From Patescibacteria group bacterium (GTDB lineage Bacteria > Patescibacteriota > Patescibacteriia > UBA1558 > UBA10009), in assembly GCA_041662565.1 (NCBI GenBank), contig JBAZSE010000005.1, forward strand, positions 402 to 64,401: 64,000 bases of DNA, read 5' to 3'. Position 1 is the first letter of the stretch. Each line of letters begins with the position of its first letter. The notes under the pieces are model-generated. The model made no database searches. It was not told the DNA's origin and saw nothing but the letters and a program-made list of their open reading frames with translations. Shown here one piece after another: positions 1,603-56,730 of the stretch. A program made the position numbers and the translations under genes.

Positions 1603-1647
1603 GTTTTTAGTTTTATCGAGCTAAGCTCGATTAAGTTTTGAATTTTT
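1602..1647. repeat. Palindromic mini-element (about 46 bp), intergenic copy between ileS and recO
   Basis: AGTTTTTAGTTTTATCGAGCTAAGCTCGATTAAGTTTTGAATTTTT with a perfect 17-bp core palindrome ATCGAGCTAAGCTCGAT. Confidence 0.75.
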
Positions 1648-2328: not shown

Positions 2329-4226
2329 TGTTTAACGATAATCGGAAAAAAAATCACGGGCTGGTTGATTTGCGATCAGCCAATGTGGTTAAAAAAGCTG
2401 CCACCTCTGCCCCAAAGCATGATGATTTTTTAAGCACGCCCCACGGCCCGGAACACCGTAAAATTACCCGCCGGCCGATTAAAAAGCGCTCGTCTTTTTT
2501 ATTGTTTTTAATCGTTTTACTGCTTGTTTTAGCCGGCGCTTCTATTGCCAGTTTTTTTATCTTTGATCAAGGAAAAGGCGATCAATCATTGCGCTTAACT
2601 TTAGCCGCCGCTAAAAGCGTTTCTTCGGGGGAAGAAGTAACCCTGGAAATCGGCTACGAAAATTTGGATACCATTGCTTTACAAAAAATGCAGGTGGTGG
2701 TGGAATATCCCAAGGGCTTTTATTTTAATTCCGCCTCACAGGAACCCGTTAATCAAGAGAGTAATATTTGGAATTTGCCGGATTTGGGAGTTGGACAAAA
2801 AGGTACGCTTTCTATTAATGGTCAGTTGATTGGCAAGGTAGAGGAAAATAAAGAATTTAAAATGACTTTTCAGTATCGCCCGAGTAATTTTAATTCCGAT
2901 TTCAGCGAAACTCTTGCCAAAGCCATTAAGATTAGCCAGACCTTGTTTCCTGTAAATTTAACGGCACCTGAAAAAATTGAAGAAGGCCAAACAGTAAATT
3001 TTAAAGGCGATTTTAAAAATGAAGCCAAGCAGGATTTAAATAATTTATTTTGGAGTTTTGATTTAGGCGAAGCTTTTATGCCTTTGTCTTTAACTCCAAC
3101 CACTTCCATAAACTACCAATGGTCTTTACCCGCATTGCCACCAGGTGAAAAAAAAGATATTTTGGTTGAAGGAAAAATAAATTCCGCAGTTGCCAACCCC
3201 TTGCCTTGGTATTTTAAAATCTGGCAGAAAGTTGATTTTAAAGGCAATCAGCAGGAACGTATTCTATACGAGCAATCAGGCCAAGTTGAAGTTGTTGCGC
3301 CGGTTTTAAAAGTTGGCTTGGAACTTTCTTCACCCGATAAAAAAATCAATTGGGGCGATGAAGTTGATTTAAAGCTGACTTACGAAAATATAGGCAAGAT
3401 TGATGTTAAGGAAGCGGTGTTAAAATTAGCTTTAAACCAGTATATTGATTGGCCAAGGTACAAAAACCAAACCAATGCCACCATAGATGGTAACACTTTA
3501 ATTTGGCTTTCCAAAAGCGGAAATGCCACTGTTGGCCTTTCAAATATCCCAGTTGGCACAAAAGGCGAACTTTTGATAACCGTACCGTTTGTTTTGGAAC
3601 CTAAGGATTTAATGGATTATTCGCCCGATGAAGCCAAGTTGGAGGCAACAGCTTCGGCTATGATTAAATATAATGATCAGGAGTTGAATTTTAACAGCGA
3701 AAAATTGCTTTTGCCTTTAATCAGTGCGGCGCGTTTGCAGGCCGAGGCCAGGTATTATTTGGATTCAACCCCGCTAAGCGGGGCAAGTACCAAAGTAGGC
3801 AGCGGTCCTTTGCCTCCGGTAGTTGGTCAAGAAACAAAATATCGGATTTACTGGAAGCTATTTACCGGCTCAAGCGGTTTAAGCAACGTGGCGGTTAAAG
3901 CCAGCTTGCCTTCTTATATTAATTTTGTTGGGGGCGCTGATAATCCCACCTTGGGCACACCTTTAAAATTTGATTCCGCCACGCGTGAAGTTTCGTGGGA
4001 AATTAATGAGGCAGCGCCTAACACCGGTTTAATGGCTAGTTTTGATGTTAGTGTTAAACCCTCAACCGATCAGGTTAATCAATTGCTAATCTTAAGCAAT
4101 CCCGCCATGCTTAACGCCCAGGAAAAAGATAGCAATAATTTTATTTCCAAAACCACAAATTTGTTAACTTCCGATTTAACAGCCGATTTGCAAGCCAAGG
4201 GCAAGGGCAGGGTAATGGTAAAATAA
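2328..4226 (+). CDS. Hypothetical membrane-anchored protein: basic cytoplasmic N-terminus, one TM helix, then repeated extracellular beta-sandwich-like (DUF11/CARDB-like) segments
   Basis: A hydrophobic helix (FLLFLIVLLLVLAGASIASFFIF) follows a Lys/Arg-rich N-terminus, and the extracellular part has recurring similar blocks. The ATG at 2328 is preferred over the TTG at 2325. Confidence 0.5.
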   Translation: MFNDNRKKNHGLVDLRSANVVKKAATSAPKHDDFLSTPHGPEHRKITRRPIKKRSSFLLFLIVLLLVLAGASIASFFIFDQGKGDQSLRLTLAAAKSVSSGEEVTLEIGYENLDTIALQKMQVVVEYPKGFYFNSASQEPVNQESNIWNLPDLGVGQKGTLSINGQLIGKVEENKEFKMTFQYRPSNFNSDFSETLAKAIKISQTLFPVNLTAPEKIEEGQTVNFKGDFKNEAKQDLNNLFWSFDLGEAFMPLSLTPTTSINYQWSLPALPPGEKKDILVEGKINSAVANPLPWYFKIWQKVDFKGNQQERILYEQSGQVEVVAPVLKVGLELSSPDKKINWGDEVDLKLTYENIGKIDVKEAVLKLALNQYIDWPRYKNQTNATIDGNTLIWLSKSGNATVGLSNIPVGTKGELLITVPFVLEPKDLMDYSPDEAKLEATASAMIKYNDQELNFNSEKLLLPLISAARLQAEARYYLDSTPLSGASTKVGSGPLPPVVGQETKYRIYWKLFTGSSGLSNVAVKASLPSYINFVGGADNPTLGTPLKFDSATREVSWEINEAAPNTGLMASFDVSVKPSTDQVNQLLILSNPAMLNAQEKDSNNFISKTTNLLTSDLTADLQAKGKGRVMVK

Positions 4227-4237
4227 GAAATTGTTCT

Positions 4238-4378
4238 TGCTTTGCTCCGGATGAAATTAAATTTTCCATACTCGCACCCTCCTTCGTCTCGCCAGGGTCT
4301 CGCCTGCAGCTCGCCCTGGCTCGCTTGGGGGCACCCGCTCGTATGAAGAAAATTTAATTTCATCCGTCGCTCGCAAAT
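4238..4378. repeat. GC-rich TIR-flanked palindromic intergenic element, family A copy 1
   Basis: Perfect 18-bp TIRs GGATGAAATTAAATTTTC / GAAAATTTAATTTCATCC. Core CCCTCCTTCGTCTCGCC, then stem GCCAGGG/CCCTGGC around loop TCTCGCCTGCAGCTCG. Confidence 0.8.
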
Positions 4379-4395: not shown

Positions 4396-5538
4396 ATGTC
4401 TTTTAAACTTTTAAAAACCAGTAAACATTCCCAAGCCCGCTTGGGTGTTTTAAAAACCGCTCATGGCAATATCCAAACGCCTTTTTTTATGCCCATTGCA
4501 ACACGGGGCGCTGTTAAAACCTTAAGGGCTTCAGACATCAAAAAATTGAATGCCGAAATTGTTTTGGGCAACACTTATCATTTATTTTTTAAGCCGGGTT
4601 TAAAGATATTAAAAAAAGCGCAAGGGCTTCATAAATTTATGGATTGGACTGGCCCTATTTTAACCGATTCAGGCGGGTATCAGGTTTTTTCGCTCGGGGG
4701 CAATAAGGATTTTGGCTCGTCTCATAAAAATTTGGTTAAAATAACTTCAGCCGGCGTGGAATTCAGATCGGTTTACGATGGCAGTAAACATTTGTTTACG
4801 CCCAAAAAAGTTTTGGAAATCCAGGCCATGATCAATTCCGACATTAGAATGGTTTTGGATGTTTGTTCGCCATCCAATTGTTCGCGCGAGCAGGCCGAAA
4901 AGGATTTGGAAATTACATTAACTTGGGCAAAGATCAGCTCAAAACTAATAACAAAAAATTCAAAACATTTATTATTTGGCATTGTTCAGGGCGCTTTGTA
5001 TAAGGATTTACGCTTAAAATGCGTTCAAGAGTTGGTTAAATTGAATTTCGACGGCTATGCGTTGGGCGGTTTGGCGGTGGGCGAAACACCCCAAGAAATG
5101 TATAAAGTTTTGGATTACGCCTCACCTAAAATGCCAGCAGATAAACCCCGCTATTTAATGGGCGTTGGTTACCCCGAGCAGATTGTGGAGGCGGTAAAAA
5201 GAGGGATGGATATGTTTGATTGCGTTATTCCAACCAGAGAGGCTCGTCATGGTAGATTATATTATTTTAATTTAAAGCCAAAAGCTAAAAACTTAAAGTT
5301 GGATAAAGATTTTTATCAAACTATTAATATAAAGTCGGAAAAATTTTCTAACGACATGTCGGCGATAAATGTAAATTCCAAAATTCCCGAACTTAAAAAT
5401 TATACCAAGGCCTACTTAAGGCATTTGTTTAGCGTGGAAGAACCGCTTGCTTTGCAACTTGCCACTTTAAATAATGTGGAATTTTATCTTCAGCTTATGG
5501 CTGAGATTAGAAACAGCATTAAAATTAACCGATTATAA
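4396..5538 (+). CDS. tgt: Queuine tRNA-ribosyltransferase
   Basis: Hallmark Tgt motifs are present: TPFFMPIATRGAVK, LGNTYHL, DSGGYQVFSL. Confidence 0.9.
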   Translation: MSFKLLKTSKHSQARLGVLKTAHGNIQTPFFMPIATRGAVKTLRASDIKKLNAEIVLGNTYHLFFKPGLKILKKAQGLHKFMDWTGPILTDSGGYQVFSLGGNKDFGSSHKNLVKITSAGVEFRSVYDGSKHLFTPKKVLEIQAMINSDIRMVLDVCSPSNCSREQAEKDLEITLTWAKISSKLITKNSKHLLFGIVQGALYKDLRLKCVQELVKLNFDGYALGGLAVGETPQEMYKVLDYASPKMPADKPRYLMGVGYPEQIVEAVKRGMDMFDCVIPTREARHGRLYYFNLKPKAKNLKLDKDFYQTINIKSEKFSNDMSAINVNSKIPELKNYTKAYLRHLFSVEEPLALQLATLNNVEFYLQLMAEIRNSIKINRL

Positions 5539-8286: not shown

Positions 8287-8425
8287 TTGCGAGCGACGGG
8301 TGAAATTAAATTTTCTTCATACGAGCGGGGCCCGCGAGCGAGCCCGGGCGAGTTTCAAACGAGACCCGGGCGAGACGAAGGAGGGTTGCGAGCATGGAAA
8401 ATTTAATTTTACCTGGAGCAAAGCA
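8287..8425. repeat. GC-rich palindromic element, family A copy 2 (inverted orientation relative to copy 1)
   Basis: About 90% identical to the reverse complement of 4238-4378, including flanks. The internal stem is GCCCGGG/CCCGGGC, a compensatory change relative to copy 1. Confidence 0.8.
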
Positions 8426-8439
8426 ATGATTGCTAAATT

Positions 8440-11445: not shown

Positions 11446-12880
11446 AAAATTTTATATTACCACCGCCATACCTTATGTTAATGCCCGTCCGCATATTGGC
11501 TTTGCTTTGGAAGCAGTGCAGGCCGATGCTTTGGCTAGATATCATCGCACTTTAGGCGAGGATGTATTCTTTTTAACCGGCACGGATGAAAACAGCTTAA
11601 AAAACGTTCAAGCCGCGGAAAAAGAAGGCATTAGCGCGCAAGAGCTGTGCGATCGCAACGCCAAAGTTTTTTTGGAATTAAAAAACGCCCTTAATTTGTC
11701 ATTTGATTCATTTATTAGAACAACCGAAGAACGCCATTTTAGCGGGGCGCAAAAATTATGGTCTGGGTGCCAGCCACAAGATATTTATAAAAAGAAGTAT
11801 CAGGGTTTTTATTGCGTTGGCGGCGAAGCTTTTTATCTGGAAAAAGATTTAATCGAAGGGTTATGCCCGGAGCATAAAACCGCGCCCGATTTGATTGAAG
11901 AAGAAAATTATTTTTTCAAGCTTTCAAATTATCAGGATAAATTATTAAAATTAATTGAATCAGACGAGTATAAAATTACGCCAGCCACCAAAAAAAATGA
12001 AATTACCAGCTTTATTAAAATGGGATTGGAAGATTTTAGCATTTCCCGCTCAACTGCTCGGGCTCATGGCTGGGGAGTAAGTGTTCCAGACGATGCCTCG
12101 CAAATAATGTATGTCTGGTTTGACGCTTTATCTAATTATATTACAGCTTTGGATTATTCATCCGAAGGCGACTTATTTAAAAAATATTGGCCGGCCGATG
12201 TGCATGTGGTAGGCAAGGGGATTATCCGGTTCCACGCTGTTTACTGGCCAGCCATGTTAATGAGCGCCGGTTTGGAAGTTCCTAAAGAATTGTTTGTTCA
12301 TGGATATGTTAATGTTGGTGGAGAAAAAATGAGCAAGAGTTTGGGTAATGTGATTGATCCTTTTGAATTGGTTTCCAAATACGGCACCGATGCCGTTCGT
12401 TATTATCTGCTCAAGCAAATTCATCCGGTAGAAGATTCCGATTTTACGATTGAAAAATTTGAAGAAGTTTATAACGCGGATTTGGCCAATGGGCTGGGGA
12501 ACCTCGTTTCCAGAACAGCTAATTTGATTGAAAAGAATTTTGATGGGAAACTTAAAGCTCAAAACTTAATTGAGCTCAGCTCGATAGAGCTAAAAACTAA
12601 TTTTGATAAATATATTAAAGAATATAGATTTGATTTGGCGCTTAAGGAAATTCAGGAAATGATTACGGCTACCGACCAGCTGATTGATCAACAAAAGCCC
12701 TGGGTTTTGGTTAAAACCGATTTAAAAAAAGCAGAAGAAGTTTTGGTTCAGGCAGTTAGCCAAATTTTATCCGTAGCCGAAAGTTTAAAGCCATTTTTAC
12801 CTCCTACAGCGGATAAAATCATCGTTCAGTTTACTGCCGAAAAGATAGTTAAAGGCGAATCGTTGTTTCCAAGAATTTAA
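11438..12880 (+). CDS. metG: Methionyl-tRNA synthetase; carries an in-frame palindromic mini-element insertion at 12554-12604
   Basis: YITTAIPYVNARPHIGFA (HIGH region) and KMSKSLGN. The inserted peptide is ..KAQNLIELSSIELKTNF.. Confidence 0.9.
   Translation: MSKKFYITTAIPYVNARPHIGFALEAVQADALARYHRTLGEDVFFLTGTDENSLKNVQAAEKEGISAQELCDRNAKVFLELKNALNLSFDSFIRTTEERHFSGAQKLWSGCQPQDIYKKKYQGFYCVGGEAFYLEKDLIEGLCPEHKTAPDLIEEENYFFKLSNYQDKLLKLIESDEYKITPATKKNEITSFIKMGLEDFSISRSTARAHGWGVSVPDDASQIMYVWFDALSNYITALDYSSEGDLFKKYWPADVHVVGKGIIRFHAVYWPAMLMSAGLEVPKELFVHGYVNVGGEKMSKSLGNVIDPFELVSKYGTDAVRYYLLKQIHPVEDSDFTIEKFEEVYNADLANGLGNLVSRTANLIEKNFDGKLKAQNLIELSSIELKTNFDKYIKEYRFDLALKEIQEMITATDQLIDQQKPWVLVKTDLKKAEEVLVQAVSQILSVAESLKPFLPPTADKIIVQFTAEKIVKGESLFPRI
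12554..12604. repeat. Palindromic mini-element copy inserted in-frame within metG
   Basis: AAAGCTCAAAACTTAATTGAGCTCAGCTCGATAGAGCTAAAAACTAATTTT; both arms match the reverse complement of the 1602-1647 copy. Confidence 0.75.
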
Positions 12881-12885: not shown

Positions 12886-13032
12886 TAAAGCGAGCATGGG
12901 CAAGTAAAATTTTTTTCGGTCTGAGACGGGTCCCCCCGAACGAGCCTGGGCGAGCTACAAGCGAGACCCTGGCGAGTTGAGGGAGGGAGGCGAGGACAAA
13001 AAAATTTTTGCTTGGCCAGGCTAGCGTTCAAC
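12886..13032. repeat. GC-rich palindromic element, subfamily B
   Basis: Core GGCGAGTTGAGGGAGGGAGG; near reverse complement of the 18287-18421 copy. Confidence 0.75.
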
Positions 13033-13627: not shown

Positions 13628-14986
13628 ATGCTCATAGACACTCACGCTCATCTAAATTTTAGGGCTTACGATATTGATAGGGAAGAGATTGTTACACGTT
13701 GTGCCAAAAAGGGCATGGCAGTTGTTAACGTTGGCGCGCAATACCAAACCAGCAAGAGCGCGGCCGCGTTGGCATTAAAGAATGAAAATTTTTACGCCAC
13801 AGTGGGCCTGCATCCAATCCATGCTTTTGATGAAATTTTTGACGCGGCCGCTTACGAATCATTGTTAAACCCTAAAGTAGTCGGAATCGGCGAATGTGGT
13901 TTGGATTATTGGTGGTTTAAATACCTTAAAGAGCCCTATAAAATAGTTTTGTTGCACGGTTGGGGCGGTAGTAAGGATGAAAGGTTTTTTATTTGGCTGG
14001 ATGAAGAGCTGACTAAACTTGGTCACACCGTCATTCGCTTTAATTTTCCCGATACCGATAATCCCAATCAAGAAGCGTGGTTAAAAGAAATTAGCAAGCA
14101 AGTGGGCTATGTTAATGGCAAAACATTGCTAGTAGGTTTTTCTTTGGGCGGGGTTTCCATTTTAAGATTTTTGGAACAGTTGGATGAAGATGCAACCATA
14201 GCTGGTGCTTACTTGTTAGGAACTCCGGCTCAAAATCCGGGCTATCCGGAAATAAAAGATTTTTTTAAAACCGATTTTGATTGGCAACACATTAATTCGG
14301 TTTGTAAAAATTTTAACATTTACAGTTCCACTAATGATGAGGTGGTGCCCGCGGAGCATGGCTTAAAATTGGCGGAAAAACTTAAAACCGAGGTTAAATC
14401 CATTAAAGACGCCTGGCATTTTAATCTAGAAACCATTCCAGAATTGCTGATAAATATCAATGAAGATATTATTGAGGTTGAAAAAAATTTACCGACCATA
14501 GAAGGAGTGATTAAAAAACAGGAAGAAATTTTTATCCAACAAATCAAATTTGCCCAAAAATACAACCTTGCCTTAATGTTGCATGGTCGCAATGGCTTAG
14601 AGGGCAGGGATGTTTACGCCGAAATGCTGGAGATCCTTAAAAAGGAAAAAATTGAGCGGGCTGTTTTTCATTGCTATGGCGGAACGCTGGCAATGGCTCA
14701 ACAAATTGTTAAGGCCGGTTATTATATCGGTATAGATGGCCCGGTTACTTATAAAAAGAAATCGGAAGAACTTCAGACGGTTGTCAAGGAAATTCCTTTG
14801 TCCAGTTTGTTATTGGAAACTGATGCTTGTGGTCCTTATTTGACTCCAGAGCCATATCGAGGACAGCGCAATGAACCGATTTATATTGAGCTCATTGCCA
14901 GTAAAGTCGCCGAATTAAAGGGTTTGTCAAAAGATGAAGTTATTGAACAAACCTGGCAAAACGCTAAAAAACTTTTTAAAATTTAA
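13628..14986 (+). CDS. TatD-family metal-dependent hydrolase with an internally inserted YdeN/RBBP9-type alpha/beta serine-hydrolase domain
   Basis: TatD N-terminus (DTHAHL ... GIGECGLDY) and TatD C-terminus (LMLHGRNG ... FHCYGG ... LLETDACGPYLTPEPYRG). These flank roughly 195 aa that match the YdeN family (IVLLHGWGGS, GFSLGG, RFLEQL, STNDEVVP, HF). Confidence 0.8.
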   Translation: MLIDTHAHLNFRAYDIDREEIVTRCAKKGMAVVNVGAQYQTSKSAAALALKNENFYATVGLHPIHAFDEIFDAAAYESLLNPKVVGIGECGLDYWWFKYLKEPYKIVLLHGWGGSKDERFFIWLDEELTKLGHTVIRFNFPDTDNPNQEAWLKEISKQVGYVNGKTLLVGFSLGGVSILRFLEQLDEDATIAGAYLLGTPAQNPGYPEIKDFFKTDFDWQHINSVCKNFNIYSSTNDEVVPAEHGLKLAEKLKTEVKSIKDAWHFNLETIPELLININEDIIEVEKNLPTIEGVIKKQEEIFIQQIKFAQKYNLALMLHGRNGLEGRDVYAEMLEILKKEKIERAVFHCYGGTLAMAQQIVKAGYYIGIDGPVTYKKKSEELQTVVKEIPLSSLLLETDACGPYLTPEPYRGQRNEPIYIELIASKVAELKGLSKDEVIEQTWQNAKKLFKI

Positions 14987-18286: not shown

Positions 18287-18421
18287 CTAGCGCAAGGTAA
18301 AAAAAATTTTTTGTCCTCGATTCCCTCCCTCAACTCGTCGGGGTCTCGTCTGGAACTCGCCCCGACTCGTTCGGGGGGATCCCGTCTCGGACCGAAAAAA
18401 TTTTTCTTACCTCGCGCTAGC
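18287..18421. repeat. GC-rich palindromic element, subfamily B, located inside the atp operon between atpE and atpF
   Basis: TIR CTAGCGCAAGGTAAAAAAAATTTTTT / AAAAAATTTTTCTTACCTCGCGCTAG. Internal stem GTCGGGG/CCCCGAC around loop TCTCGTCTGGAACTCG. Confidence 0.8.
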
Positions 18422-18441
18422 TATTATCTACATATAACATT

Positions 18442-24018: not shown

Positions 24019-24039
24019 ATATCCGTAAAATCCGTGAAT

Positions 24040-24640
24040 AAAAAAAGACCGCCGAGAACGAGATGGTCTAAGTCAGAGTGGTTGATTTTCTGACTGACTT
24101 CTCGCTCAAGGCGGTGTGGGAGTTCGGCCCCCTCTAGCCGAACAAAGGGTTCGGCGCCGCGTGAATCCACGGTGTGCTTAAGACCGCTTTGTCTTTCTGG
24201 TTTGAAAGACAAAATACGCGGCGCCGAAAAATGAGGCGCTACCAAACCTCTGAACCAGCTTCCTCTCCACCAAGAAAGGGGGTAAGGTAGCGCCGAAAAA
24301 TCCTAAGGCAAGGGGTAGAAACTGTTCAATCTGCACTAACTATAATTGATGCGTTGCCGCGGGCCTCCGAGGGAGGGTGGGAGGTGCCGATTACATCAAT
24401 CATGTTTAAGCATGCTAACCCTTGCCTTATTGAAGGCAGTTAATTACTTGGTCGCGTTCGGTGAGGATGCCGAACTCAATTAACTGCCTGAAACTCCAGG
24501 CGTTTTTTGCAGAATGGGCGAAACATTGCATAAACGCCTTTAGAGGCGGCTTGCCGGGGTGCTGGCGCAGGCAGGAGTATGAACCTAAGCCAACCAAGCC
24601 GCAAACAAAAAGTACACCTACACTTTTACCTTAACATATT
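24040..24640. ncRNA. GC-rich ORF-free structured region. It is a candidate structured ncRNA; RNase P RNA-like motif fragments were noted, but its identity is unresolved.
   Basis: About 600 bp at well above local GC with no credible ORF and many nested hairpins (for example GGCAGTTAATT...AATTAACTGCC and AAGGCAAGGG...CCCTTGCCTT). Weak resemblance to RNase P CR-II (GAAAGGGGGTAAGGTAGCGCC) and to a CR-V-like segment (TATGAACCTAAGCC). Confidence 0.3.
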
Positions 24641-24744: not shown

Positions 24745-27700
24745 ATGACTTACGCTGATTCTCTTAATCCGGAGCAAAAAAAGGCCGTAGAATACACCAA
24801 GGGCCCGCTATTAATCGTGGCCGGCGCCGGTACCGGTAAAACAACGGTTATCTGCGAACGGATCAATTTTTTAATTACCAAAAAAAATTTACAGCCCAAT
24901 CAAATTTTAGCCCTAACTTTTACCGAAAAAGCCGCCGCCGAAATGGAAGAAAGGGTGGATAAAGCCCTGCCTTACGGTTATATCGATTTATGGATTTCCA
25001 CCTTCCACAGTTTTGCCGAAAGATTATTACATGAGCATGGTTTGGATATCGGCTTAAGCGATGATTTTAAATTATTGGATCAAACCGCTTCCTGGCTGTT
25101 GGTGCGCAATAATTTGGATAAATTCAATTTGGATTATTACCGACCGCTGGGCAATCCCAATAAATTCATCCATGCGTTGTTAAAGCATTTTTCCAAATGC
25201 AAAGATGAACTTATCAAACCAAAAGATTATTTGGACTACGCTGAATCATACCGTTTGGATAATGATTTAAGAAAAGATGAATCCGCCTTCGCCAAGGCTT
25301 CGTCGGACCAAGGGGATGCCGCCATGGAAGTTAAGCGTTTGGAAGAACTAGCTAATGCTTATCATGTTTATCAGCAGTTGTTGCTGGATAATAATTATTT
25401 GGATTTTGGCGACTTAATTAATTATGTGTATGAGCTTTTTTTAAAGCGTCCGCAAATTTTAAAAAAATACCAAGAGCAGTTTAAATACATTTTGGTTGAT
25501 GAATTTCAGGATACCAATTACGCCCAGTACCAATTAATCAAGCTTTTGGCCGGAACAAAAAATAACGTCACGGTAGTGGGGGATGACGACCAATCAATTT
25601 ATAAATTCCGCGGGGCTTCTATTTCTAATATTTTGGAATTTAAAAAAGATAACCCCAAATGCTTGGAAATTTATTTAACCACCAATTACCGGACCAAGCA
25701 GAATATTTTGGATGTTGCCTATAAGTTTATCCAGCTTAATAATCCCAATCGGTTGGAAGCGCAGTTAAAAATCAAAAATAAATCGAGCTCAGCTCGACAA
25801 AGCTCAAAGCTCAAGACTCCAGCCAAAAGTTCAAGATCAAAATTTACCAAAGAGTTAATCGCTTCCAGAACAGGGCAGGGGATTATTGAGCATTTGCACG
25901 CGCCAACGCTGGATGACGAGGTGGCAATGGTGATCAATAAAATCGGCCAGCTTTATCAAAAAGAACAGGGTCTTTCGTGGTCCAATTTTGCCATTTTAGT
26001 TAGAGCTAACGATCAGGCCAGGCCGTTTATCGAGGCCCTGGAAAGAGCGGCTGTGCCTTACCAATTTGTGGCTTCCCGCGGGCTTTATGCCAAACCCTTG
26101 GTGTTAAATTTAATTGCTTTTCTGCGCTTGTTGGATAACTACCATGAATCCGATGCTATGTACCGCTATTTAACTTTACCGATTTTTGCCTTACCTCAAG
26201 CGGAATTGATTAAAATCACCCACGAAGCCAATAAAAAAAGATGGACTTTATACGAAACCGTTAAACAGGTTCGTTACTTATTGCATCTATCGCCTGATGC
26301 GCAAAAAGGTCTGGATGTGGCTTTAAATTTTTTGGAAAAATATCTGGCCCGCGCCAAAACGGAAAAATGCAGCCGTTTGGTTTTTGATTTTTTAAACGAA
26401 TCAAATTATTTAAAATATATCGATACCTTACCCGAAGGCAAAAAGCGCCAAGAATTTTCTTATCTTTCCCAGTTTTACAAGCGCATTAAAACTTTTGAAG
26501 AAATCAATGATGATAAATCGGTTAAAAATTTCCTCAACCAGTTGGGTTTGGAATTGGAATCAGGCGAGCAGGGTGATCTGGCGGCCTTAAACGAAGATGA
26601 AGGTCCGGAAATGGTTAAAGTGATGACGGTGCACAGTGCCAAGGGTTTGGAATTTAAATATGTTTTTATCGTTAATTTGGTGGATATGCGCTTTCCCACT
26701 CGTGAGCGGCACGATCCTATCCAATTGCCCGATAAATTAATTAAAGAAATTGTGCCGGAAGGGGATATTCATTTGCAGGAAGAAAGACGATTGTTTTACG
26801 TTGGTTTAACCCGTGCTCGCGACGGTTTGTTTTTAACTTCGGCCGAAGATTACGGCGGGGTTAAAAAGAAAAAGATTTCCGTTTTTTTAACCGACCTTGG
26901 GTTCAAGCAGCCGGAGCATTTAACTTTTGTTAAAGAAAAATTGGAAACAGTGGAACAAGTGCAAGGTACTGCCAAAGAAACGATTAAAGAATTTTTGCCA
27001 GCCAAATTTTCTTTCACCCAAATCAAGGATTTTCTTGCTTGTCCTCGGTCGTATTATTACAAATACATATTAAAAGTCCCTATGCAGGGTAATAATTATT
27101 TTAGCTTTGGTTCTTCCATTCACCTGTCTTTGCAAAAATTTTACGAAGAAGTCAAAAGAAGAAAGGGAAGCGCGCAAACCGGTTTGTTTGGTCCGGTTTC
27201 GCAACCGAATTTGTTTGGCCAGAGTAATGTTTTAACTCAAGGGGACCCCTCGACGCGGCTCGGGGCAGTTCTCAAATCCTCTAGCCCAAAGTTAATTCGC
27301 GATTTAATTAGTTTAGAGGAGTTAATTAAATTTTACCAAGAGAACTGGATCGAGGACTGGTATGCTTCAAAAGAGCAGAAAGAAAAATATTTCAAATTAG
27401 GCAAGGAAATTTTAAAAAACTTTTACCATAGCGATTATTTGGAGCAATCCAATCCGGTTTATTTGGAAAAAGGTTTTGGTATTAAAGTGGGTGAATTTAG
27501 TTTAACCGGTAAAATTGATAGAATAGACCGCGTGCAAAACGGTTTAAAGATTATTGATTATAAAACCGGCCAACCCAAGGAAAAATTGGAAGCCGATGAT
27601 AAAGACCAGTTGTTAATTTACCAAATGGCTGCTGCGCAATTGTTTAACGAACCAATAGGTGAGCTGGCTTATTATTATTTGGAAAACGATACTCAAGTGG

Positions 27701-27837
27701 TTTTTTTGGGTAAGGAAAAGGATATGGAAAAATTGCAAGAAAAAATTATCACCACCATCAATCAAATCAGAGATTTTGACTTTTTGGCCTTTGTAGAGAG
27801 CCACGGACAGTGTGATTATTGCAAAGAGATTATTTAA
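24745..27837 (+). CDS. UvrD/PcrA-type SF1 helicase fused to a C-terminal RecB-family PD-(D/E)XK nuclease (AddA-like). It carries an in-frame palindromic mini-element insertion at about 25775-25830.
   Basis: Walker A AGAGTGKTT, helicase motifs, a nuclease motif GKIDRIDRV...IIDYKTG, and Cys residues (CPRSYYY, CDYC) suggesting an Fe-S-type nuclease domain. Confidence 0.8.
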   Translation: MTYADSLNPEQKKAVEYTKGPLLIVAGAGTGKTTVICERINFLITKKNLQPNQILALTFTEKAAAEMEERVDKALPYGYIDLWISTFHSFAERLLHEHGLDIGLSDDFKLLDQTASWLLVRNNLDKFNLDYYRPLGNPNKFIHALLKHFSKCKDELIKPKDYLDYAESYRLDNDLRKDESAFAKASSDQGDAAMEVKRLEELANAYHVYQQLLLDNNYLDFGDLINYVYELFLKRPQILKKYQEQFKYILVDEFQDTNYAQYQLIKLLAGTKNNVTVVGDDDQSIYKFRGASISNILEFKKDNPKCLEIYLTTNYRTKQNILDVAYKFIQLNNPNRLEAQLKIKNKSSSARQSSKLKTPAKSSRSKFTKELIASRTGQGIIEHLHAPTLDDEVAMVINKIGQLYQKEQGLSWSNFAILVRANDQARPFIEALERAAVPYQFVASRGLYAKPLVLNLIAFLRLLDNYHESDAMYRYLTLPIFALPQAELIKITHEANKKRWTLYETVKQVRYLLHLSPDAQKGLDVALNFLEKYLARAKTEKCSRLVFDFLNESNYLKYIDTLPEGKKRQEFSYLSQFYKRIKTFEEINDDKSVKNFLNQLGLELESGEQGDLAALNEDEGPEMVKVMTVHSAKGLEFKYVFIVNLVDMRFPTRERHDPIQLPDKLIKEIVPEGDIHLQEERRLFYVGLTRARDGLFLTSAEDYGGVKKKKISVFLTDLGFKQPEHLTFVKEKLETVEQVQGTAKETIKEFLPAKFSFTQIKDFLACPRSYYYKYILKVPMQGNNYFSFGSSIHLSLQKFYEEVKRRKGSAQTGLFGPVSQPNLFGQSNVLTQGDPSTRLGAVLKSSSPKLIRDLISLEELIKFYQENWIEDWYASKEQKEKYFKLGKEILKNFYHSDYLEQSNPVYLEKGFGIKVGEFSLTGKIDRIDRVQNGLKIIDYKTGQPKEKLEADDKDQLLIYQMAAAQLFNEPIGELAYYYLENDTQVVFLGKEKDMEKLQEKIITTINQIRDFDFLAFVESHGQCDYCKEII
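25775..25830. repeat. Palindromic mini-element copy inserted in-frame within the helicase-nuclease gene
   Basis: AAATCGAGCTCAGCTCGACAAAGCTCAAAGCTCAAG; core TCGAGCTCAGCTCGA is a perfect palindrome. It encodes the low-complexity peptide NKSSSARQSSKLKT. Confidence 0.7.
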
Positions 27838-41528: not shown

Positions 41529-41548
41529 ATTTACTTTTATTTGGTTTA

Positions 41549-41578
41549 CCCAGCCCTTCGCAAAGGGCTGGGTTTTTT
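41549..41578 (+). terminator. Rho-independent terminator after rplA
   Basis: CCCAGCCCTT-CGCAA-AGGGCTGGG followed by TTTTTT. Confidence 0.8.
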
Positions 41579-45314: not shown

Positions 45315-46154
45315 ATGCAGGGCTTTACTCGCTTTGTGGCAAGAAAACATATGAGAAAAATTTTTCTCTTGTTGGCTTTGTTGGCTACGGCTATCTGGCC
45401 AGCCGGCAGTGTTATGGCCTGGAGTAATCCCAGCCACCCTTTTATGGTGGATAAAGCCGCCATTATTTTACAAAAAGATTTGGCAGCGTATATTAAAAAG
45501 TATCCTGATTTTAACAAGTATTTAAACACCTATCTGCCAAAAATTAAACAAGGTGCATCCGATGCCGATGCTTTTTCCACTACTGTTGGCAAAGAGGTTT
45601 ATAAATTTAAGGTCTTAGGCAAAAGTTATGAAATTTACATGCCAACCAGTGAACATTATTATGATGTGGCAACCGGCAAAGGAGCTTTAAAATATTTTAG
45701 ATCAGCCAGGCAAAAAGCCGATGAATATTATGCAACTGCCAAACAGAAATTTACCGAAAAAAAATATGATGACGCCTTTTTGTTTTTAGGCAGAGCAATT
45801 CATATGGTTCAGGATACTACCAATCCGCACCACACTCAAATCGGCGCCAGTGCCATTCTTAACTGGGAGGGTTTTTCCAATCACGCTTTTTCCAACCGGG
45901 AAAAATACAGCGTTGCTTCGGGCGGGATTTATACCGAGCCCAATATAGGCACCATGGTCCACAATAACGCCAATCTTTGCTCGGGTTATTTTAAGTATGT
46001 TGATGGCTTAAACAGATTGATTAAATGGATTAATTGGCCGGTTGATGATGATTATCCCAAGGCCGGTAACGCCTGTTTTTCCAGAGGCGAAAAAACAACA
46101 GCTGGTGCTGTTTACATGTTTTTAAAGGATGTTCTTAAGTTGCCAGCCAAGTAA
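45315..46154 (+). CDS. Secreted zinc-dependent phospholipase C / P1-nuclease-fold protein
   Basis: Signal peptide, then mature N-terminal WSNPSHPF (Trp1 zinc ligand), EHYYD, and FLFLGRAIHMVQDTTNPHHT matching the B. cereus PLC zinc-site pattern. Confidence 0.65.
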   Translation: MQGFTRFVARKHMRKIFLLLALLATAIWPAGSVMAWSNPSHPFMVDKAAIILQKDLAAYIKKYPDFNKYLNTYLPKIKQGASDADAFSTTVGKEVYKFKVLGKSYEIYMPTSEHYYDVATGKGALKYFRSARQKADEYYATAKQKFTEKKYDDAFLFLGRAIHMVQDTTNPHHTQIGASAILNWEGFSNHAFSNREKYSVASGGIYTEPNIGTMVHNNANLCSGYFKYVDGLNRLIKWINWPVDDDYPKAGNACFSRGEKTTAGAVYMFLKDVLKLPAK

Positions 46155-46184
46155 ATATATCATATGATTACATATAAACTCCTC

Positions 46185-46210
46185 GGCTCGTCGAGCTAAG
46201 CTCGATCTCG
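46185..46210. repeat. Core-only copy of the mini-element palindrome upstream of gatB
   Basis: GGCTCGTCGAGCTAAGCTCGATCTCGCC contains the perfect TCGAGCTAAGCTCGA. Confidence 0.55.
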
Positions 46211-48489: not shown

Positions 48490-48726
48490 ATCAGACGGCG
48501 CTAACGTAAAAATAAAAAAATTTGTAGCCGAGGACCGTTTAAGCCTTATCAAACGTGGCTTGAGAAAATTCAGAACGGCGGGGATAACTTAAATGAAAAA
48601 ATCGCAATTGATTGGCGCGTTCCGCAGGCAAGAATTTTTTTATTTTTACGATTAGCTATACCTAATTTAACGATGTGTGGCGCTTAGCGCCACAACCCCA
48701 GCGCTAAGCGCTGTGGATAAATACTA

Positions 48727-49891: not shown

Positions 49892-50034
49892 AACAGTTTT
49901 TAGCTGGTTAGTTTGAATTAAAAAAGCCCAGCCCTTTTTAAAGGGTTGGGCTTTTAATTAATATATTTGAATTTGTATTTTAGACCTGAATTTGCTATTA
50001 TTACTCTAAATTTAGAGGTTATCGGTAAGAGCAC

Positions 50035-53000
50035 ATGAATAATATTTTGGAAGCAAATCAGGGGCAAACAAACTGCCAACAGCAATTGTTTTATTGGCTT
50101 AATTTATCAATTAGGGCTTCTATTTTTTTAGCCGCATTTTTTGTTTTGGGTTTTTTTCTTGTTCCCTGTAAAACTTTTGCCACTACATATTATGTTGACG
50201 CAGTCGATGGAGCAAATGCAAATAACGGAACTTCGGAAGGCACTGCTTGGAAAGATATAGGCAACGCTAGTGGCGTAAATGCTCGAATGTCTGGAGGAAC
50301 TATCCAAGCAGGTGATACCATTCTTTTTAAGCGCGGACAAACCTTTACTAATGGCGCCTCCGGTTTGGTTATTACTGTTAATGGCACGGCCGGCAATATT
50401 ATAACTTTTGACGCTTACGGTACAGGTGCTAATCCAATTATTAACGGCGGAACTAGGTCTATAGATTCACGTAATAGAAGTTACCTTACTTTTAACAATC
50501 TTACGCTTACTAATGCCACCCAATATGGACTTTTATTTGGTGTTACTGCACAAAACTATGTAACTTTTAATAATATTTCGGTATCAGCCACTCCTAAAGC
50601 TATGAGCTGGGGTGGCGTAACCTATACAAATATTACTATTAGCAATTCTTCTTTTGACGCCACTACCACGCTTTGGGAGCAGGCTGCAGCATCTGTATTT
50701 GTCAATTTAACGATTACCAATAGCACTTTTGCCAAAAACGTGTTTATGAATACTGCTGTTGCTAATCCTAATACCAATATTGATATTGATGGTTGCACTT
50801 TTACTTCTGGTATTTATATATATGCTACTAATGATTTAACAATTACCGATACAACTGCCAGTGGTTCCGGTATTGATCTTCGCGGCGTTACGGATGTAAC
50901 AATGGATAATATAACGGTTACCAATACCACCACGGCTAGCGGCATGGCCATTAGCAATAGCGGAGCCATGAGCTCCAGCGATATTACTTTGAGTAATTCG
51001 CATTTAGACAATAACAGCACAGGAGGAATCAACGGTAATGGATTAACCTTAACCGGAGATGGTAGTAATTTTACTGCCACAAATGTAACCGCTTCCAATA
51101 ACGGTGGCGATGGATTTAATGTTCACAATACTTGGAGCAATGTTGTTTTTGATAAATGCTTGGCCGAAAATAACGGCACCACGGCAGAAACAACCGATGG
51201 CGATGGTTTTACTTTTCACGAAACCTCTTCAGGAACAATTAAAAATAGTGTGGCTAAAAATAACAAAAAATTCGGCATTGGCCATGTAAGTAGTTCCGTA
51301 GTGGATATGTACAATAACATTATATATAGCACTTTGGATAATGCCAGACAATTGGTTTACCTGTACGATACCGGAACATATACATTTCAAAATAATACCG
51401 TTTATAGCGGAACGCAGGGCAGGGATACAGTTTTATTGGGCGGAACTGTAACCATGAAAAACAATATCATTTATGGCGGCGATAGCGGTTTAACCACCAG
51501 CGGTGGCACAGCCACCATGGATTATAATTTGGTTTATGGAGCTAATACGGGTTACGATGGCGTTTCAGCCGGTGCTCATGATTTATCCAGTAATCCGTTA
51601 TTTTTAAACAGCACTGGTAGCTATTCCACCACTACCGATTTTTTACTGGCCGCTACTTCTCCGGCTATTGATGCCGGTACAACCTTAAGCGCCACCTATG
51701 ATGATGCTAATCTCTATGGTTCTTCTTGGCCCAGCGTGGTTACCACCGCAGATCAGGATCTAAGCGGTTATGGCTGGGAAATGGGAGCTTTTATTTATCC
51801 CTACCCTCAAAAGCCAACAATTGGCACTCCTTCGGCAATATCTGCCACCTCTATCCGCTGGAATTTTACCGATGCTGCCAATGATGAAACAGGTTTTAGG
51901 ATTTACAATAATTCCTATGCTTTGGCGGTTTCTTCGGCTACTGCGGGCCTAACCTATCTTGACGAAACCGGCTTATCGGAAAATACCCAATATACAGGCA
52001 GATTTGCCACGGCTTACAATAGCTATGGCAATTCGGCTTCATCTTCTATTGCTACATCCAAGTATACCCTGGCTAATGCACCCTCTGATTTAGCCGCTAC
52101 TTGGGATAGTGACGGCAATATTATCTTAACCGTTGATTCTTTTCCCAATGATACCCTGGGTACCTCCGGCTACTATTTTGAAAATACCACCCGTGGCAGT
52201 AATTCTGGTTGGCTGCAAACAAATACCTGGCAGGATAATAATCTGGCTTGTGGCACCAATAATTACACTGTTAAATACAGAAACGGCAACAGTGTAGAAA
52301 CAACCACCGCTACTGCTTCTCAAACCAGAAGTTGCGGTGGAGGATTTGGTTCTATTGGTTCCTCATCTGGTTCCTCATCACCCAGTGACCCCCCTCAAAC
52401 AAATATTCCAGCTACAATTCCTACAGACACAGTTGTACCTACACCTAATGCGGAAGTAACCCCAAATCCCAATCTGCCTGAATCTAGTATAATCATGCAA
52501 ACAACAGTGGAATTTTTGGCTGATTCTTTTAATGAAGTTAGGAACATTGCTCAAGAACAGGAAGCTTTTCAAAATATTGCCAAGCGTTTGCCGGAAGCAA
52601 ATTTATTTACCCCAATCCAGCAACAAGCCCTCTCCAATTTTATCGTTTACGGCACTCTGGAAACTAAAAAACTGGGCTCAGGAGAGCGAGCCGGCAGTAT
52701 TTACTCCTTTCAATCGGCTTTTAACAAACTGCCTCAAACCGAACAAGATTGGAGTGATGTGCTTAAAATATCTTTGGGTAGATGGCCATCGCAAACTTCA
52801 TCAACCAAAGAAAACGCGGTTAAAATAGATTTTAAAACCATTTATCAACGAGAACCTCAAGATAGTAATTCTCAGGATCAAGTTGCTATTGATATTATGG
52901 CTTATGGTATTAGGCCACTAATTCGCAATCTTAACTCTGAAAAAATCGCATTTAAATACTTTAAAGCTATCTACGGCAAAATTCCTCAAAGTACCCTTGA

Positions 53001-53046: not shown

Positions 53047-53103
53047 AAGGCATGTTTTTCAAAATCAAATAGTGATTAAATGGCCTAAAATTATTTTATA
53101 ACT

Positions 53104-53139
53104 AAAAAACAGCATTTATCATTTAAGTGCTGTTTTTTT
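53104..53139. terminator. Bidirectional intrinsic terminator after the beta-helix protein gene
   Basis: ACAGCAT...GTGCTGT hairpin flanked by an A-run and a T-run. Confidence 0.75.
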
Positions 53140-53222
53140 GGTGTCCCCGGCAAGACCCCGAAGAAATTTCGCTAACGCTCAATTTTTCAGGGCAGGGTTT
53201 AAACTTTTCAAATTATATAAGA

Positions 53223-53299
53223 TGGTACGCCCAAGAGGATTTGAACCTCTAACCTTCAGCACCGGATTCTGACGCCCTATCCAGTTGAGCTATGGGCGC
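53223..53299 (-). tRNA. tRNA-Arg (anticodon CCG), CCA encoded
   Basis: Manual fold: acceptor GCGCCCA/TGGGCGT, D-arm GCTC-AACTGGATA-GGGC, anticodon loop ATCCGGT, T-arm AGAGG-TTCAAAT-CCTCT, and a 3' ACCA. Close to the E. coli tRNA-Arg(CCG) recalled from memory. Confidence 0.8.
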
Positions 53300-56217: not shown

Positions 56218-56452
56218 AGGTTTTTTGTTAGGTTAAGGTTATAAATTAAAAAAATTCCTTCGTCCAATAAATCTACTAAAAAATAAGTAAATTCAGGACG
56301 AAGGAATTTATTCCCCCGCGGTTCCACCTGTTTTATCCCGCTAAGCAGGATCTCTCAGAGATTGTCTTTAAACTTAGCCCCGCTTAGCGGGGTTTCCATT
56401 TTTATGGACGCAGGGTTGGTAGCCCTGCCAATCGTTTAGTATGCTAAATATA

Positions 56453-56728: not shown

Positions 56729-56730
56729 AA

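What the first reader, a model, noticed from the sequence alone, without database searches (positions are those of the whole stretch)
25775..25830. Second in-frame copy of the palindromic mini-element, inside the UvrD/RecB-type helicase-nuclease gene
The core TCGAGCTCAGCTCGA plus flanking AAAGCTCAAAGCTCAAG sits in the helicase-nuclease gene, in a different reading frame from the metG copy. It yields a Ser/Lys-rich low-complexity insert (IKNKSSSARQSSKLKTPAKSS) between the helicase and nuclease modules. The same element tolerated in two frames in two unrelated essential genes argues for a mobile DNA-level element rather than a conserved protein motif.
Basis: partly seen in the sequence, partly recalled or inferred. 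Interest (0 to 1): 0.65.

Follow-up and report, generated by a model that had tools for sequence, protein, structure and literature searches.

The report
Tiny hairpin repeat inside helicase gene
A 15-base perfect palindrome that recurs around this uncultured bacterium's genome also sits in frame, as six extra codons, in a floppy surface loop of a DNA-repair helicase; small palindromic repeats inside repair genes are already known, but this one is unusually short and comes from a little-studied lineage.

Summary
TCGAGCTCAGCTCGA lies at 25783-25797 inside the UvrD/PcrA-type helicase-nuclease gene (24745-27837). It is one of four copies (at most one mismatch) in the window, where none is expected; a fifth lies 7 kb beyond the window. 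The metG and helicase copies are read in different frames (ELSS versus SSSAR). Three copies share about 47 nt. Relatives at 57-81% identity lack the palindrome. Against the best-aligning ortholog it is one clean 18-nt, six-codon gap.

One claim is wrong. The insert is not between the helicase and nuclease modules. It sits just after helicase motif IV, in a disordered loop that varies from 6 to 77 residues among 120 homologs.

The family belongs to a wider class. Seven of the eight G+C-rich perfect odd palindromes in the window are centred on GCT-N-AGC, including two stems of a T-box-like leader, and close relatives carry the class too.

Best reading: a REP-like dispersed hairpin repeat, copied at the DNA level and tolerated in a permissive loop. 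How it spreads is unknown, and no transposase was seen in 74 kb. Intragenic REPs in UvrD, RecB and tRNA-synthetase genes are already published, so this is a new variant of a known kind.

The parts
25783..25797 (+). Perfect 15-nt palindrome TCGAGCTCAGCTCGA in the helicase-nuclease gene. It encodes S347-S-S-A-R351.
   Evidence: In this frame a central A or G would create a TAA or TGA stop; the centre is C (read directly from the sequence).
25783..25800 (+). 18-nt, six-codon (SSSARQ) segment that is absent from the best-aligning ortholog L003.
   Evidence: Global alignment of the window against L003 gives one contiguous 18-nt gap over the palindrome plus CAA in two of three gap-penalty settings, with conserved flanks. 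The gap position is ambiguous by 1-2 nt.
25765..25811 (+). Extended 47-nt repeat unit of the helicase copy: an A-rich AAARCTN heptamer context around the palindrome.
   Evidence: family D1: 81% identity to the metG copy; flanks alone match 24/32 to metG and 23/32 to the reverse complement of the 1616 copy, with P below about 3e-4 even among A-rich sequence.
24745..27837 (+). Host gene, a UvrD/PcrA-type SF1 helicase fused to a C-terminal PD-(D/E)XK (AddB/Cas4-like) nuclease.
   Evidence: Pfam; PcrA 1pjr, E 2e-89; homologs across Patescibacteria.
25759..25851 (+). Hypervariable loop between invariant E338 and K369. It is 30 residues here.
   Evidence: 6-77 residues across 120 homologs, median 11; pLDDT below 50 for residues 349-367, modelled as coil; the PcrA alignment breaks between query residues 341 and 386.
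12570..12584 (+). metG copy TTGAGCTCAGCTCGA (one mismatch, synonymous ATT versus ATC). It is read as (I)ELSS(I). The extended unit is 12552-12598.
   Evidence: It lies in a variable segment of MetRS; the nearest relative L006 (73% identity) is 4 residues shorter there and cannot be aligned across it.
1615..1631 (+). Intergenic copy ATCGAGCTAAGCTCGAT between ileS and recO. The 15-nt core ends 20 nt upstream of the recO ATG. It is terminator-like on the + strand. The extended unit is 1598-1646.
   Evidence: pair I6: 87% complementary to the metG unit over 45 nt; 36/40 match, E 4e-8.
46190..46206 (+). Intergenic copy GTCGAGCTAAGCTCGAT whose 15-nt core ends 18 nt upstream of the gatB ATG. Only the core is shared; the flanks are CTCG-rich.
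   Evidence: A promoter-like TTGCCA-17-TATGAT lies at 46140-46168.
3769..3783 (+). Class member CCCCGCTAAGCGGGG inside ORF 2325-4226, in frame as TPLSGA.
48676..48713 (+). Two adjacent class members, TGTGGCGCTTAGCGCCACA and CAGCGCTAAGCGCTG, in the spacer between the YkuD gene and the class II tRNA-synthetase gene.
56336..56392 (-). Two class members, CCCCGCUAAGCGGGG and AUCCUGCUUAGCGGGAU, inside a sub-threshold T-box-like leader upstream of thrS.
   Evidence: Rfam RF00230 scores 34 bits, E 4e-6, below the gathering score of 93. The hairpins align to model stem positions.

Best explanation
The helicase copy belongs to a genome-specific dispersed repeat, a 15-17-nt perfect palindrome (A)TCGAGCT-N-AGCTCGA(T). 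As single-stranded DNA or RNA it folds into a 6-7-bp hairpin with a 3-nt loop. This repeat is one sub-family of a wider class of hairpins, seen across this lineage, whose apex is GCT-W-AGC and whose outer arms differ between sub-families.

Most copies are non-coding and end 15-20 nt upstream of start codons. Now and then a copy is placed by a DNA-level copying event into an open reading frame. It survives only under three conditions: its length is a multiple of three (here 18 nt), the frame is free of stop codons, and the site is a structurally permissive loop. The helicase site meets all three. It is a disordered, hypervariable loop after motif IV in domain 2A, and the centre base C avoids TAA or TGA.

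Shown: the repeat family, the frame difference, absence from orthologs, the 18-nt gap, the loop context, and the wider class.

Inferred: the direction of the event (insertion here rather than precise loss in the relative) and the copying mechanism. My preferred mechanism is short-patch templated copying, by gene conversion or template switching, between sites that share A-rich AAARCTN heptamer flanks. A hairpin-specific transposase of the REP/RAYT or IS200 type, encoded elsewhere in the genome, remains possible. The six extra residues are most likely neutral passengers.
For: - Copy number: four copies in 64 kb against zero expected. A fifth lies 15 nt upstream of rpsB on the same contig, beyond the window.
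- No copy with up to 1 mismatch occurs in 1.38 Mb of loci from relatives and other taxa. None with up to 2 mismatches occurs in the closest helicase loci.
- The frames differ between metG and the helicase.
- The family is the top direct-repeat family of the whole window: 47 nt at 81%. Flank identity of 23-26 out of 32 is beyond an A-rich null.
- Three of the four AAARCTNAAARCT double heptamers in the window abut palindrome copies.
- There is a clean 18-nt gap against L003. The orthologous loops in L002, L196, L197 and L198 lack the palindrome.
- The loop spans 6-77 residues in 120 homologs and has pLDDT below 50.
- All three stop codons that the metG and 1616 versions would carry in the helicase frame are absent from the helicase copy.
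- Wider class: 7 of 8 G+C-rich odd palindromes are centred on GCT-N-AGC, against 0.04 expected. The class is also present in close relatives L002 and L197 at non-orthologous places.
- Published precedent: REPs inside UvrD/Rep, RecB and tRNA-synthetase genes (PMC3733652).
Against: - No transposase, RAYT or IS gene lies in the 74 kb examined.
- There are no degenerate copies with 2-3 mismatches. This fits very recent spread, but it fits purifying selection on a functional site equally well.
- The helicase flanks are ancestral, being shared with L003. The 47-nt similarity may therefore reflect site preference, or copying out of the helicase gene, rather than a 47-nt element.
- The only informative 'empty site' comes from an ortholog at 74% protein identity. 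No strain-level presence/absence polymorphism was found.
- For metG, no clean insertion boundary can be drawn.
- Only about 7% of a roughly 1-Mb genome was seen.
Confidence: 0.65

Rival explanations
1. The palindrome is a selected cis-acting signal rather than a spreading repeat. It could be an RNA hairpin (a 5'-UTR or intercistronic stabiliser, a terminator, or a protein-binding stem-loop) or a dimeric DNA-binding site. On this view even the genic copies are maintained for function, for example as terminators of antisense transcription.
For: - All three non-coding copies end 15-20 nt upstream of a start codon: recO, gatB and rpsB.
- The copy at 1616 scores as an intrinsic terminator on the + strand, and the helicase copy scores as one on the minus (antisense) strand.
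- No decayed copies exist.
- The apex GCT-W-AGC is conserved while the arms covary between sub-families. Two class members form stems of a T-box-like leader, where an RNA hairpin is expected.
- Imperfect members keep pairing through G-U on the transcribed strand in 3 of 4 cases (read directly).
Against: - A binding site or a hairpin does not explain 23-26 out of 32 flank identity among three copies.
- It does not explain creation by a discrete 18-nt insertion in a protein loop.
- The metG copy is not terminator-like on either strand.
- The centre base shows no consistent orientation relative to transcription (UAA and UUA both occur).
- The downstream genes are functionally unrelated.
- This reading is not exclusive of the best explanation, since REPs are both dispersed and functional.
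Confidence: 0.25
2. The palindrome arose locally in the helicase loop by slippage or duplication of the AGCTC and AAAGCTC short repeats that make up this low-complexity loop. Its identity to the other copies is then coincidental.
For: - The loop is built from short repeats: AGCTC occurs four times within 30 nt.
- The L003 loop is a tandem heptamer array.
- The L196 loop carries AGCT-rich quasi-palindromes.
Against: - Four to five identical 15-mers, three of them outside any such loop, cannot arise independently: zero are expected.
- Period-7 repeats do not produce the TCG...CGA arms.
Confidence: 0.03
3. The Ser/Lys/Arg-rich insert is a selected protein feature, a basic disordered loop that helps DNA binding. 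The DNA palindrome would then be a by-product of codon choice.
For: - Many homologs carry Lys/Ser-rich loops at this position.
- An unrelated metagenomic protein on L189 has a tail of five tandem KSSSAR units.
Against: - SSSAR uses three different Ser codons (TCG, AGC, TCA), exactly as the palindrome requires. The same DNA encodes ELSS in metG and nothing at all in three non-coding copies.
- The closest orthologs lack these residues.
- L189 was found by a search for the DNA pattern itself, so it is not independent evidence.
Confidence: 0.04
4. The feature is an assembly chimera or artefact.
For: The source is a metagenome assembly.
Against: - The exact protein is on record from four collection blocks, two contigs and two NCBI accessions.
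- The reading frame is intact.
- Independent Logan assemblies reproduce other parts of the window at 99.99-100% identity, including a sister copy.
Confidence: 0.01

Closest known systems
Intragenic REPs (repetitive extragenic palindromes found inside genes; Di Nocera et al. 2013, PMC3733652)
   Same: Both are small palindromic dispersed repeats that are mostly intergenic and probably transcribed, with a minority of copies lying in frame inside ORFs. The published host genes include UvrD/Rep helicases, RecB and tRNA synthetases, which are the same gene classes as here.
   Different: REPs are 20-40 bp, usually imperfect, and carry an unpaired GTAG or CGTC tag. GTAG REPs are linked to RAYT transposases. 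This element is a 15-17-nt perfect palindrome with no consistent tag. No RAYT was seen, only 5 copies occur in 74 kb, and the host is a Patescibacteria (CPR) bacterium.
Rickettsia palindromic elements (RPE; summarised in PMC10969869)
   Same: Palindromic repeats inserted in frame into unrelated housekeeping genes, at positions compatible with protein folding.
   Different: RPEs are about 100-150 bp and encode a conserved peptide of their own. This insert is 18 nt, and the same DNA is read in different frames in different genes.
Small dispersed repeats (SDR) and HIP1 of cyanobacteria
   Same: Both are very short palindromic repeats found in coding and non-coding DNA. HIP1 (PMC5861425, PMC4390886) occurs within genes. 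SDRs are, from my own recollection of Elhai et al. 2008, about 21-27 nt and inserted at varied sites; that paper is not in the library.
   Different: HIP1 is an 8-mer present roughly once per gene. Here the bare core GCTNAGC is not enriched (14 observed against 10.6 expected); only its long palindromic versions are. No homology to either was tested or is expected.
Intrinsic (Rho-independent) terminators
   Same: The 1616 copy (+ strand) and the helicase copy (minus strand) match the pattern of a G+C-rich stem followed by a T-run.
   Different: The metG, gatB and rpsB copies lack a proper T-run in the direction of transcription. Ordinary terminators in this window use other, unrelated stems, for example 41548-41573.

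Membership tests
REP / REPIN (RAYT-associated repetitive extragenic palindromes) | A 20-40-bp imperfect palindrome repeated many times, predominantly extragenic | tested here: inconclusive
   The palindrome is 15-17 nt and perfect. Five copies occur in 74 kb, three of them intergenic even though most of the sequence is coding. Only about 7% of the genome was seen.
REP / REPIN (RAYT-associated repetitive extragenic palindromes) | An unpaired GTAG or CGTC tag at one end of the palindrome (PMC3733652) | tested here: not met
   The flanks show no GTAG. CGTC occurs only at the 46191 copy, where it overlaps the stem.
REP / REPIN (RAYT-associated repetitive extragenic palindromes) | A cognate RAYT (Y1 / IS200-like) transposase gene flanked by the repeats | not testable with these tools
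   No such gene lies in the window or in the 10 kb of extra flank. The rest of the genome could not be fetched.
Rickettsia palindromic elements (RPE) | An element of about 100-150 bp encoding a conserved peptide, inserted in frame in ORFs | tested here: not met
   The in-frame insertion is met. The size (18-47 nt) and the conserved peptide are not: the frames differ between genes.
MITE | Terminal inverted repeats, a target-site duplication, and a size of roughly 50-500 bp | tested here: not met
   The whole unit consists of two 7-8-nt arms around one base. Flanking trinucleotides (TTA..TTA at 1616; TAA..TAG in metG; AAA..CAA in the helicase; TCG..TCT at 46191) repeat exactly only at 1616.
Highly iterated palindrome (HIP1-like) | A short palindrome over-represented many-fold throughout the genome, about once per gene | tested here: not met
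   GCTNAGC occurs 14 times against 10.6 expected. The 15-mer occurs about once per 15 kb.
Intrinsic terminator | A G+C-rich stem-loop followed directly by a U-run on the transcribed strand, at a gene end | tested here: inconclusive
   Met for the 1616 copy after ileS. The helicase copy meets it only on the antisense strand. The metG copy does not meet it. The 46191 copy was not flagged, and the rpsB copy has no U-run on the transcribed strand.
UvrD/PcrA-type SF1 helicase fused to a PD-(D/E)XK nuclease (host gene) | UvrD N- and C-terminal helicase domains with motif IV, plus a C-terminal PD-(D/E)XK nuclease with conserved Cys residues | tested here: met
   Pfam PF00580 (E 1.6e-82), PF13361 (E 2.4e-47) and PF12705 (E 5e-34). 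PcrA 1pjr matches at E 2e-89. C766 and C1023 are invariant among 60 homologs and C1026 is nearly so.

The most novel reading that the evidence does not exclude
Hairpins with a GCT-W-AGC apex may be a previously undescribed modular element of Komeilibacteria-like Patescibacteria. A dedicated protein, either a hairpin-specific nuclease or transposase or an RNA-binding protein, would recognise the conserved apex. Copies of the same 15-19-nt module would then be recruited as stems of regulatory RNAs (a T-box-like leader and 5' UTRs next to ribosome-binding sites) and, in frame, as new loop residues in housekeeping proteins.
Probability: 0.15. Interest if true: 0.7.

Novelty: new variant of a known kind. 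Interest (0 to 1): 0.42.

Why it matters
If the reading is right, dispersed-repeat turnover reaches into essential and repair genes even in the tiny, streamlined genomes of Patescibacteria, and it does so with units as short as 18 nt. That would give a concrete DNA-level source for the lineage-specific low-complexity loops often seen in proteins of these bacteria.

The wider class of hairpins with a GCT-N-AGC apex has covarying arms and appears in T-box-like stems, in 5' UTRs and in coding loops. This gives a testable handle on an unknown factor that recognises hairpins.

For genome annotation there are two practical lessons. Such inserts should not be read as functional protein motifs, and this loop of the helicase tolerates insertions.

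Tried and rejected
Searches that led nowhere:
- The single genome-contig scan (metG protein) returned no genome of this species; the best hit is 73% identical. It therefore gave no genome-wide census and no close empty sites.
- The single metagenome-contig scan used AAANTNAATYGAGCTNAGCTCGA. It returned 9 loci, none from this organism, so that collection evidently lacks this contig.
- A peptide search with KSSSAR repeats found nothing, probably because of the low-complexity filter.
- The viral-contig scan gave 98 stretches, almost all with a single site and no locus enriched in the motif, so it was not informative.
- Rfam at gathering threshold found only a tRNA in the window.
- No relative with an ileS-recO or a gatB upstream spacer was available for comparison.
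- The 90%-identity clusters contain no variant lacking the inserts.

Ideas considered and set aside:
- A parS, NBS or matS-type chromosome-organisation site. Flank homology and origin by insertion are not expected for these.
- A BlpI-type restriction site, GCTNAGC. This is from memory, and the bare site is neither avoided nor enriched.
- The IS10 target hot-spot NGCTNAGCN (PMC4574204). No IS is present and no 9-bp duplications are seen, so this is probably coincidence.
- A link between the 46191 copy and the ~140-nt G+C-rich intergenic repeat family. The alignment is weak.
Full report
**1. What is in the sequence**

The 15-nt perfect palindrome TCGAGCTCAGCTCGA is at 25783-25797, followed by AAAGCTCAAAGCTCAAG. 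It lies in the ORF 24745-27837, which encodes 1030 aa.

Pfam assigns three domains:
- UvrD-helicase, residues 7-303
- UvrD_C, residues 309-701
- PDDEXK_1, residues 755-1026

The best solved relative is PcrA (1pjr, E 2e-89). The palindrome encodes S347-S-S-A-R351.

With up to two mismatches the 15-mer has four sites in the window: 1616, 12570, 25783 and 46191. No match appeared in 100 dinucleotide-preserving shuffles. The 17-mer ATCGAGCTNAGCTCGAT has the same four sites at one mismatch or fewer, and none at two or three.

The window comes from a 223,853-bp metagenome contig of a Patescibacteria bacterium related to Komeilibacteria. About 7 kb further along that contig lies a fifth copy, ATCGAGCTAAGCTCGAT, whose 15-nt core ends 15 nt upstream of the rpsB start codon, just before its Shine-Dalgarno sequence.

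**2. The assembly is sound**

- The identical helicase protein is on record from four collection blocks, on two contigs, under two NCBI accessions.
- A second MAG has a MetRS that differs at one residue elsewhere and keeps the palindrome-encoded IELSSIE.
- Independent Logan assemblies are 99.99-100% identical to 27 kb of the window, including the copy at 1616.

**3. The repeat is longer than the core and is read in two frames**

The top direct-repeat family of the whole window is this one. The metG unit 12552-12598 matches the helicase unit 25765-25811 at 81% over 47 nt. The 1602-1646 unit is 87% complementary to the metG unit over 45 nt (blastn-short 36/40, E 4e-8).

With the core excluded, the 32 flank bases match as follows:

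| Pair | Flank identity |
|---|---|
| metG vs helicase | 24/32 |
| metG vs 1616 (reverse complement) | 26/32 |
| helicase vs 1616 (reverse complement) | 23/32 |

In an empirical null restricted to A-rich sequence, P(22 or more matches) is about 3e-4. The fourth copy (46191) shares only the core.

The flanks are AAARCTN heptamer repeats. Of the four AAARCTNAAARCT double heptamers in the window, three abut a palindrome copy.

In metG the core starts at codon position 2 (GAG CTC AGC TCG, giving ELSS). In the helicase it starts at position 1 (TCG AGC TCA GCT CGA, giving SSSAR). SSSAR uses three different Ser codons, exactly as the palindrome requires.

Read in the helicase frame, the metG and 1616 versions each contain three stop codons, and a central A or G would add another. 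The helicase copy differs at exactly those places. The similarity therefore lies in the nucleic acid, filtered by the need to stay open.

**4. Orthologs**

Among 120 homologs, the segment between invariant E338 and K369 ranges from 6 to 77 residues, with a median of 11. It is 30 residues here, longer than in 113 of the 120 (alignment view).

I read the DNA of the orthologous loops from five relatives. None has the palindrome:

| Locus | Protein | Identity to query |
|---|---|---|
| L197 | P0026 | 81% |
| L002 | P0002 | 76% |
| L003 | P0004 | 74% |
| L198 | P0015 | 64% |
| L196 | P0024 | 57% |

L003 aligns well. Its loop, (AAAACTCAAAGCTA)n, shares both flanks with the window. A global alignment puts one contiguous 18-nt gap exactly over TCGAGCTCAGCTCGA plus CAA in two of three gap-penalty settings.

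The helicase event is therefore a six-codon in-frame gain, or a precise loss in L003, within a pre-existing heptamer tract. Gain is the more parsimonious reading, because three other relatives also lack the palindrome.

For metG the copy also sits in a variable segment. The nearest relative (L006, 73%) is four residues shorter there but cannot be aligned across it, so no boundary can be drawn.

No copy with one mismatch or fewer occurs in 1.38 Mb of loci from relatives and other taxa.

**5. Structure**

That is wrong. It lies about 30 residues after motif IV (NYRT), inside the UvrD_C match, roughly 400 residues before the nuclease domain.

The PcrA alignment stops at query residue 341 and resumes at 386, which corresponds to PcrA 311-326. 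By my recollection of the PcrA structure papers, that segment belongs to domain 2A.

An AlphaFold2 model built on 60 homologs has mean pLDDT 79.8. It gives pLDDT below 50 and coil for residues 349-367, with 10-residue block means of 53, 40 and 47 across 341-370. The expectation that the insert is a loop is met.

**6. The family is part of a wider class**

I listed every perfect palindrome in the window with a single central base and arms of 7 nt or more. Eight of them have G+C-rich arms, and seven of those eight are centred on GCT-N-AGC:
- the three perfect TCGA-arm copies (the metG copy has an imperfect arm and is not counted)
- CCCCGCTAAGCGGGG at 3769, inside ORF 2325-4226 and in frame
- CCCCGCTTAGCGGGG at 56378
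- TGTGGCGCTTAGCGCCACA at 48676
- CAGCGCTAAGCGCTG at 48699

Markov-1 resampling gives 1.26 G+C-rich palindromes per window and 0.04 with that centre, with a maximum of 1 in 300 resamplings. The bare 7-mer is not enriched: 14 observed against 10.6 expected.

Close relatives carry the class at non-orthologous places:
- L002 has three (G)CCCCGCTAAGCGGGG(C) copies in G+C-rich intergenic repeats.
- L197 has ATCCCGCTTAGCGGGAT 60 nt upstream of its helicase gene.

The copy at 56378 and an imperfect one at 56336-56352 lie in the leader of thrS. That leader gives a sub-threshold Rfam T-box match (34 bits, E 4e-6, against a gathering score of 93) with a recognisable GGUGGAACCGCGGG box and a terminator. 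The two hairpins align to model stem positions.

The centre base is A or T in all eleven non-coding class members. It is C only in metG and the helicase.

Conserved apex, arms that differ between sub-families but always pair, and use as RNA stems all point to a hairpin, in RNA or single-stranded DNA, as the relevant form.

**7. Position and possible function of the non-coding copies**

The three non-coding TCGA-arm copies end 20, 18 and 15 nt upstream of the recO, gatB and rpsB start codons. Promoter-like TTGCCA-17-TATGAT or TATCAT sequences further upstream would place the gatB and rpsB copies in 5' UTRs (read directly).

Terminator scans gave mixed results:
- The 1616 copy scores as terminator-like after ileS.
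- The helicase copy scores only on the antisense strand.
- The metG copy does not score on either strand.

A cis-acting role for the non-coding copies is therefore plausible but untested. It does not conflict with a dispersed-repeat origin.

**8. Mechanism**

No transposase, RAYT, methyltransferase or restriction gene lies in the 74 kb seen; all identifiable genes are housekeeping. Flanking trinucleotides repeat exactly only at the 1616 copy, so a target-site duplication is not established.

The helicase flanks pre-exist in L003 and resemble the flanks of the other copies. I therefore favour short-patch templated copying between similar A-rich heptamer tracts, either ectopic gene conversion or template switching nucleated by the hairpin. 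This is inference. A hairpin-specific transposase encoded elsewhere is the main alternative.

**9. Comparison with known systems**

The closest published phenomenon is intragenic REPs. Di Nocera et al. (PMC3733652) list REPs inside UvrD/Rep helicase, recB, uvrA/B, dnaE and tRNA-synthetase genes in several phyla. Rickettsia RPEs are the classic in-frame palindromic inserts (PMC10969869).

This element fails the REP definition on size and on the GTAG/CGTC tag, and fails the RPE and MITE definitions on size. It works like them but is not a member of any of these families. I found no paper on such repeats in Patescibacteria in the held library.

**10. Verdict**

- The 'DNA-level element, not protein motif' reading is supported.
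- 'Mobile' is plausible but unproven.
- The stated position in the protein is wrong.

This is a new, unusually short variant of a known kind. The more interesting lead is the wider class of GCT-N-AGC-apex hairpins.

Noticed in passing
window 4237-4376, 8287-8426, 12889-13009, 18287-18422, 61804-61860: A second, larger repeat family of about 140 nt, entirely intergenic. It has a G+C-rich CTCG-repeat core and A/T-rich ends; for example 18287-18312 pairs with 18395-18420 (26 nt, 92%). Two copies are 89% identical over 141 nt in inverted orientation. Similar G+C-rich intergenic inserts ending in TCGCTCGCAA occur in relative L002. It is either MITE-like or a structured RNA. It has no Rfam match.
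   Followed up: partly
window 56230-56440, minus strand (upstream of thrS 54463-56217): A T-box-like leader. It has a GGUGGAACCGCGGG box, a terminator with the alternative antiterminator pairing, and an upstream hairpin GCAGGG-CUACCAA-CCCUGC whose loop holds a Thr codon ACC. Rfam RF00230 scores only 34 bits (gathering score 93) because the canonical Stem I is missing. It may be a short-Stem-I T-box variant in a CPR bacterium.
   Followed up: partly
window about 24030-24640, minus strand (790-nt gap between atpC and the helicase gene): An unannotated, G+C-richer segment that folds very strongly as RNA: 611 nt, MFE -240.7 kcal/mol, z = -9.9 against shuffles. It ends in a terminator-like hairpin and is partly conserved at the syntenic place in L002 (70% over 145 nt, plus a 24-nt perfect block). 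Rfam gives only sub-threshold chance hits to eukaryotic miRNA families, and ARAGORN finds no tmRNA. It is a candidate large non-coding RNA.
   Followed up: partly
L189 1000-1090 (JGI contig Ga0299912_10372041): In an unrelated low-G+C metagenomic contig, the ORF at 529-1149 ends in five tandem 18-nt units, AAA-TCGAGCTCAGCTCGA (KSSSAR, KSGSAR, and so on). The codons and frame are the same as in the helicase insert. The locus was found by a DNA-pattern search, so ascertainment is biased.
   Followed up: partly
window 5281-5300 (tgt), 1191-1230 (ileS), L003 1221-1262: AAARCTN heptamer tracts, encoding K-L-K-x-K-N-L-K-like peptides, recur without the palindrome in loops of other proteins. There is a 15/15 identity between ileS 1191-1205 and metG 12551-12565. 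This may be a recurrent low-complexity coding module of the lineage.
   Followed up: no
homologs P0003, P0010, P0016, P0020, P0090: Several orthologs of this helicase-nuclease are about 330 residues longer and carry Pfam intein or Hint domains (PF14890, PF01079). The same helicase family therefore also hosts inteins in some Patescibacteria.
   Followed up: no
window 13628-14986: A TatD-type DNase ORF with a serine-hydrolase (alpha/beta hydrolase) domain at residues 105-268. Pfam reports two TatD_DNase stretches, the best at residues 293-451, which suggests a domain insertion. The arrangement is conserved in relative L002.
   Followed up: no
window about 50000-62000: Gene orientation and GC skew switch sign around 50-53 kb: + strand genes and positive skew before, minus-strand genes and negative skew after. 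This could be a replication terminus or a local inversion.
   Followed up: no
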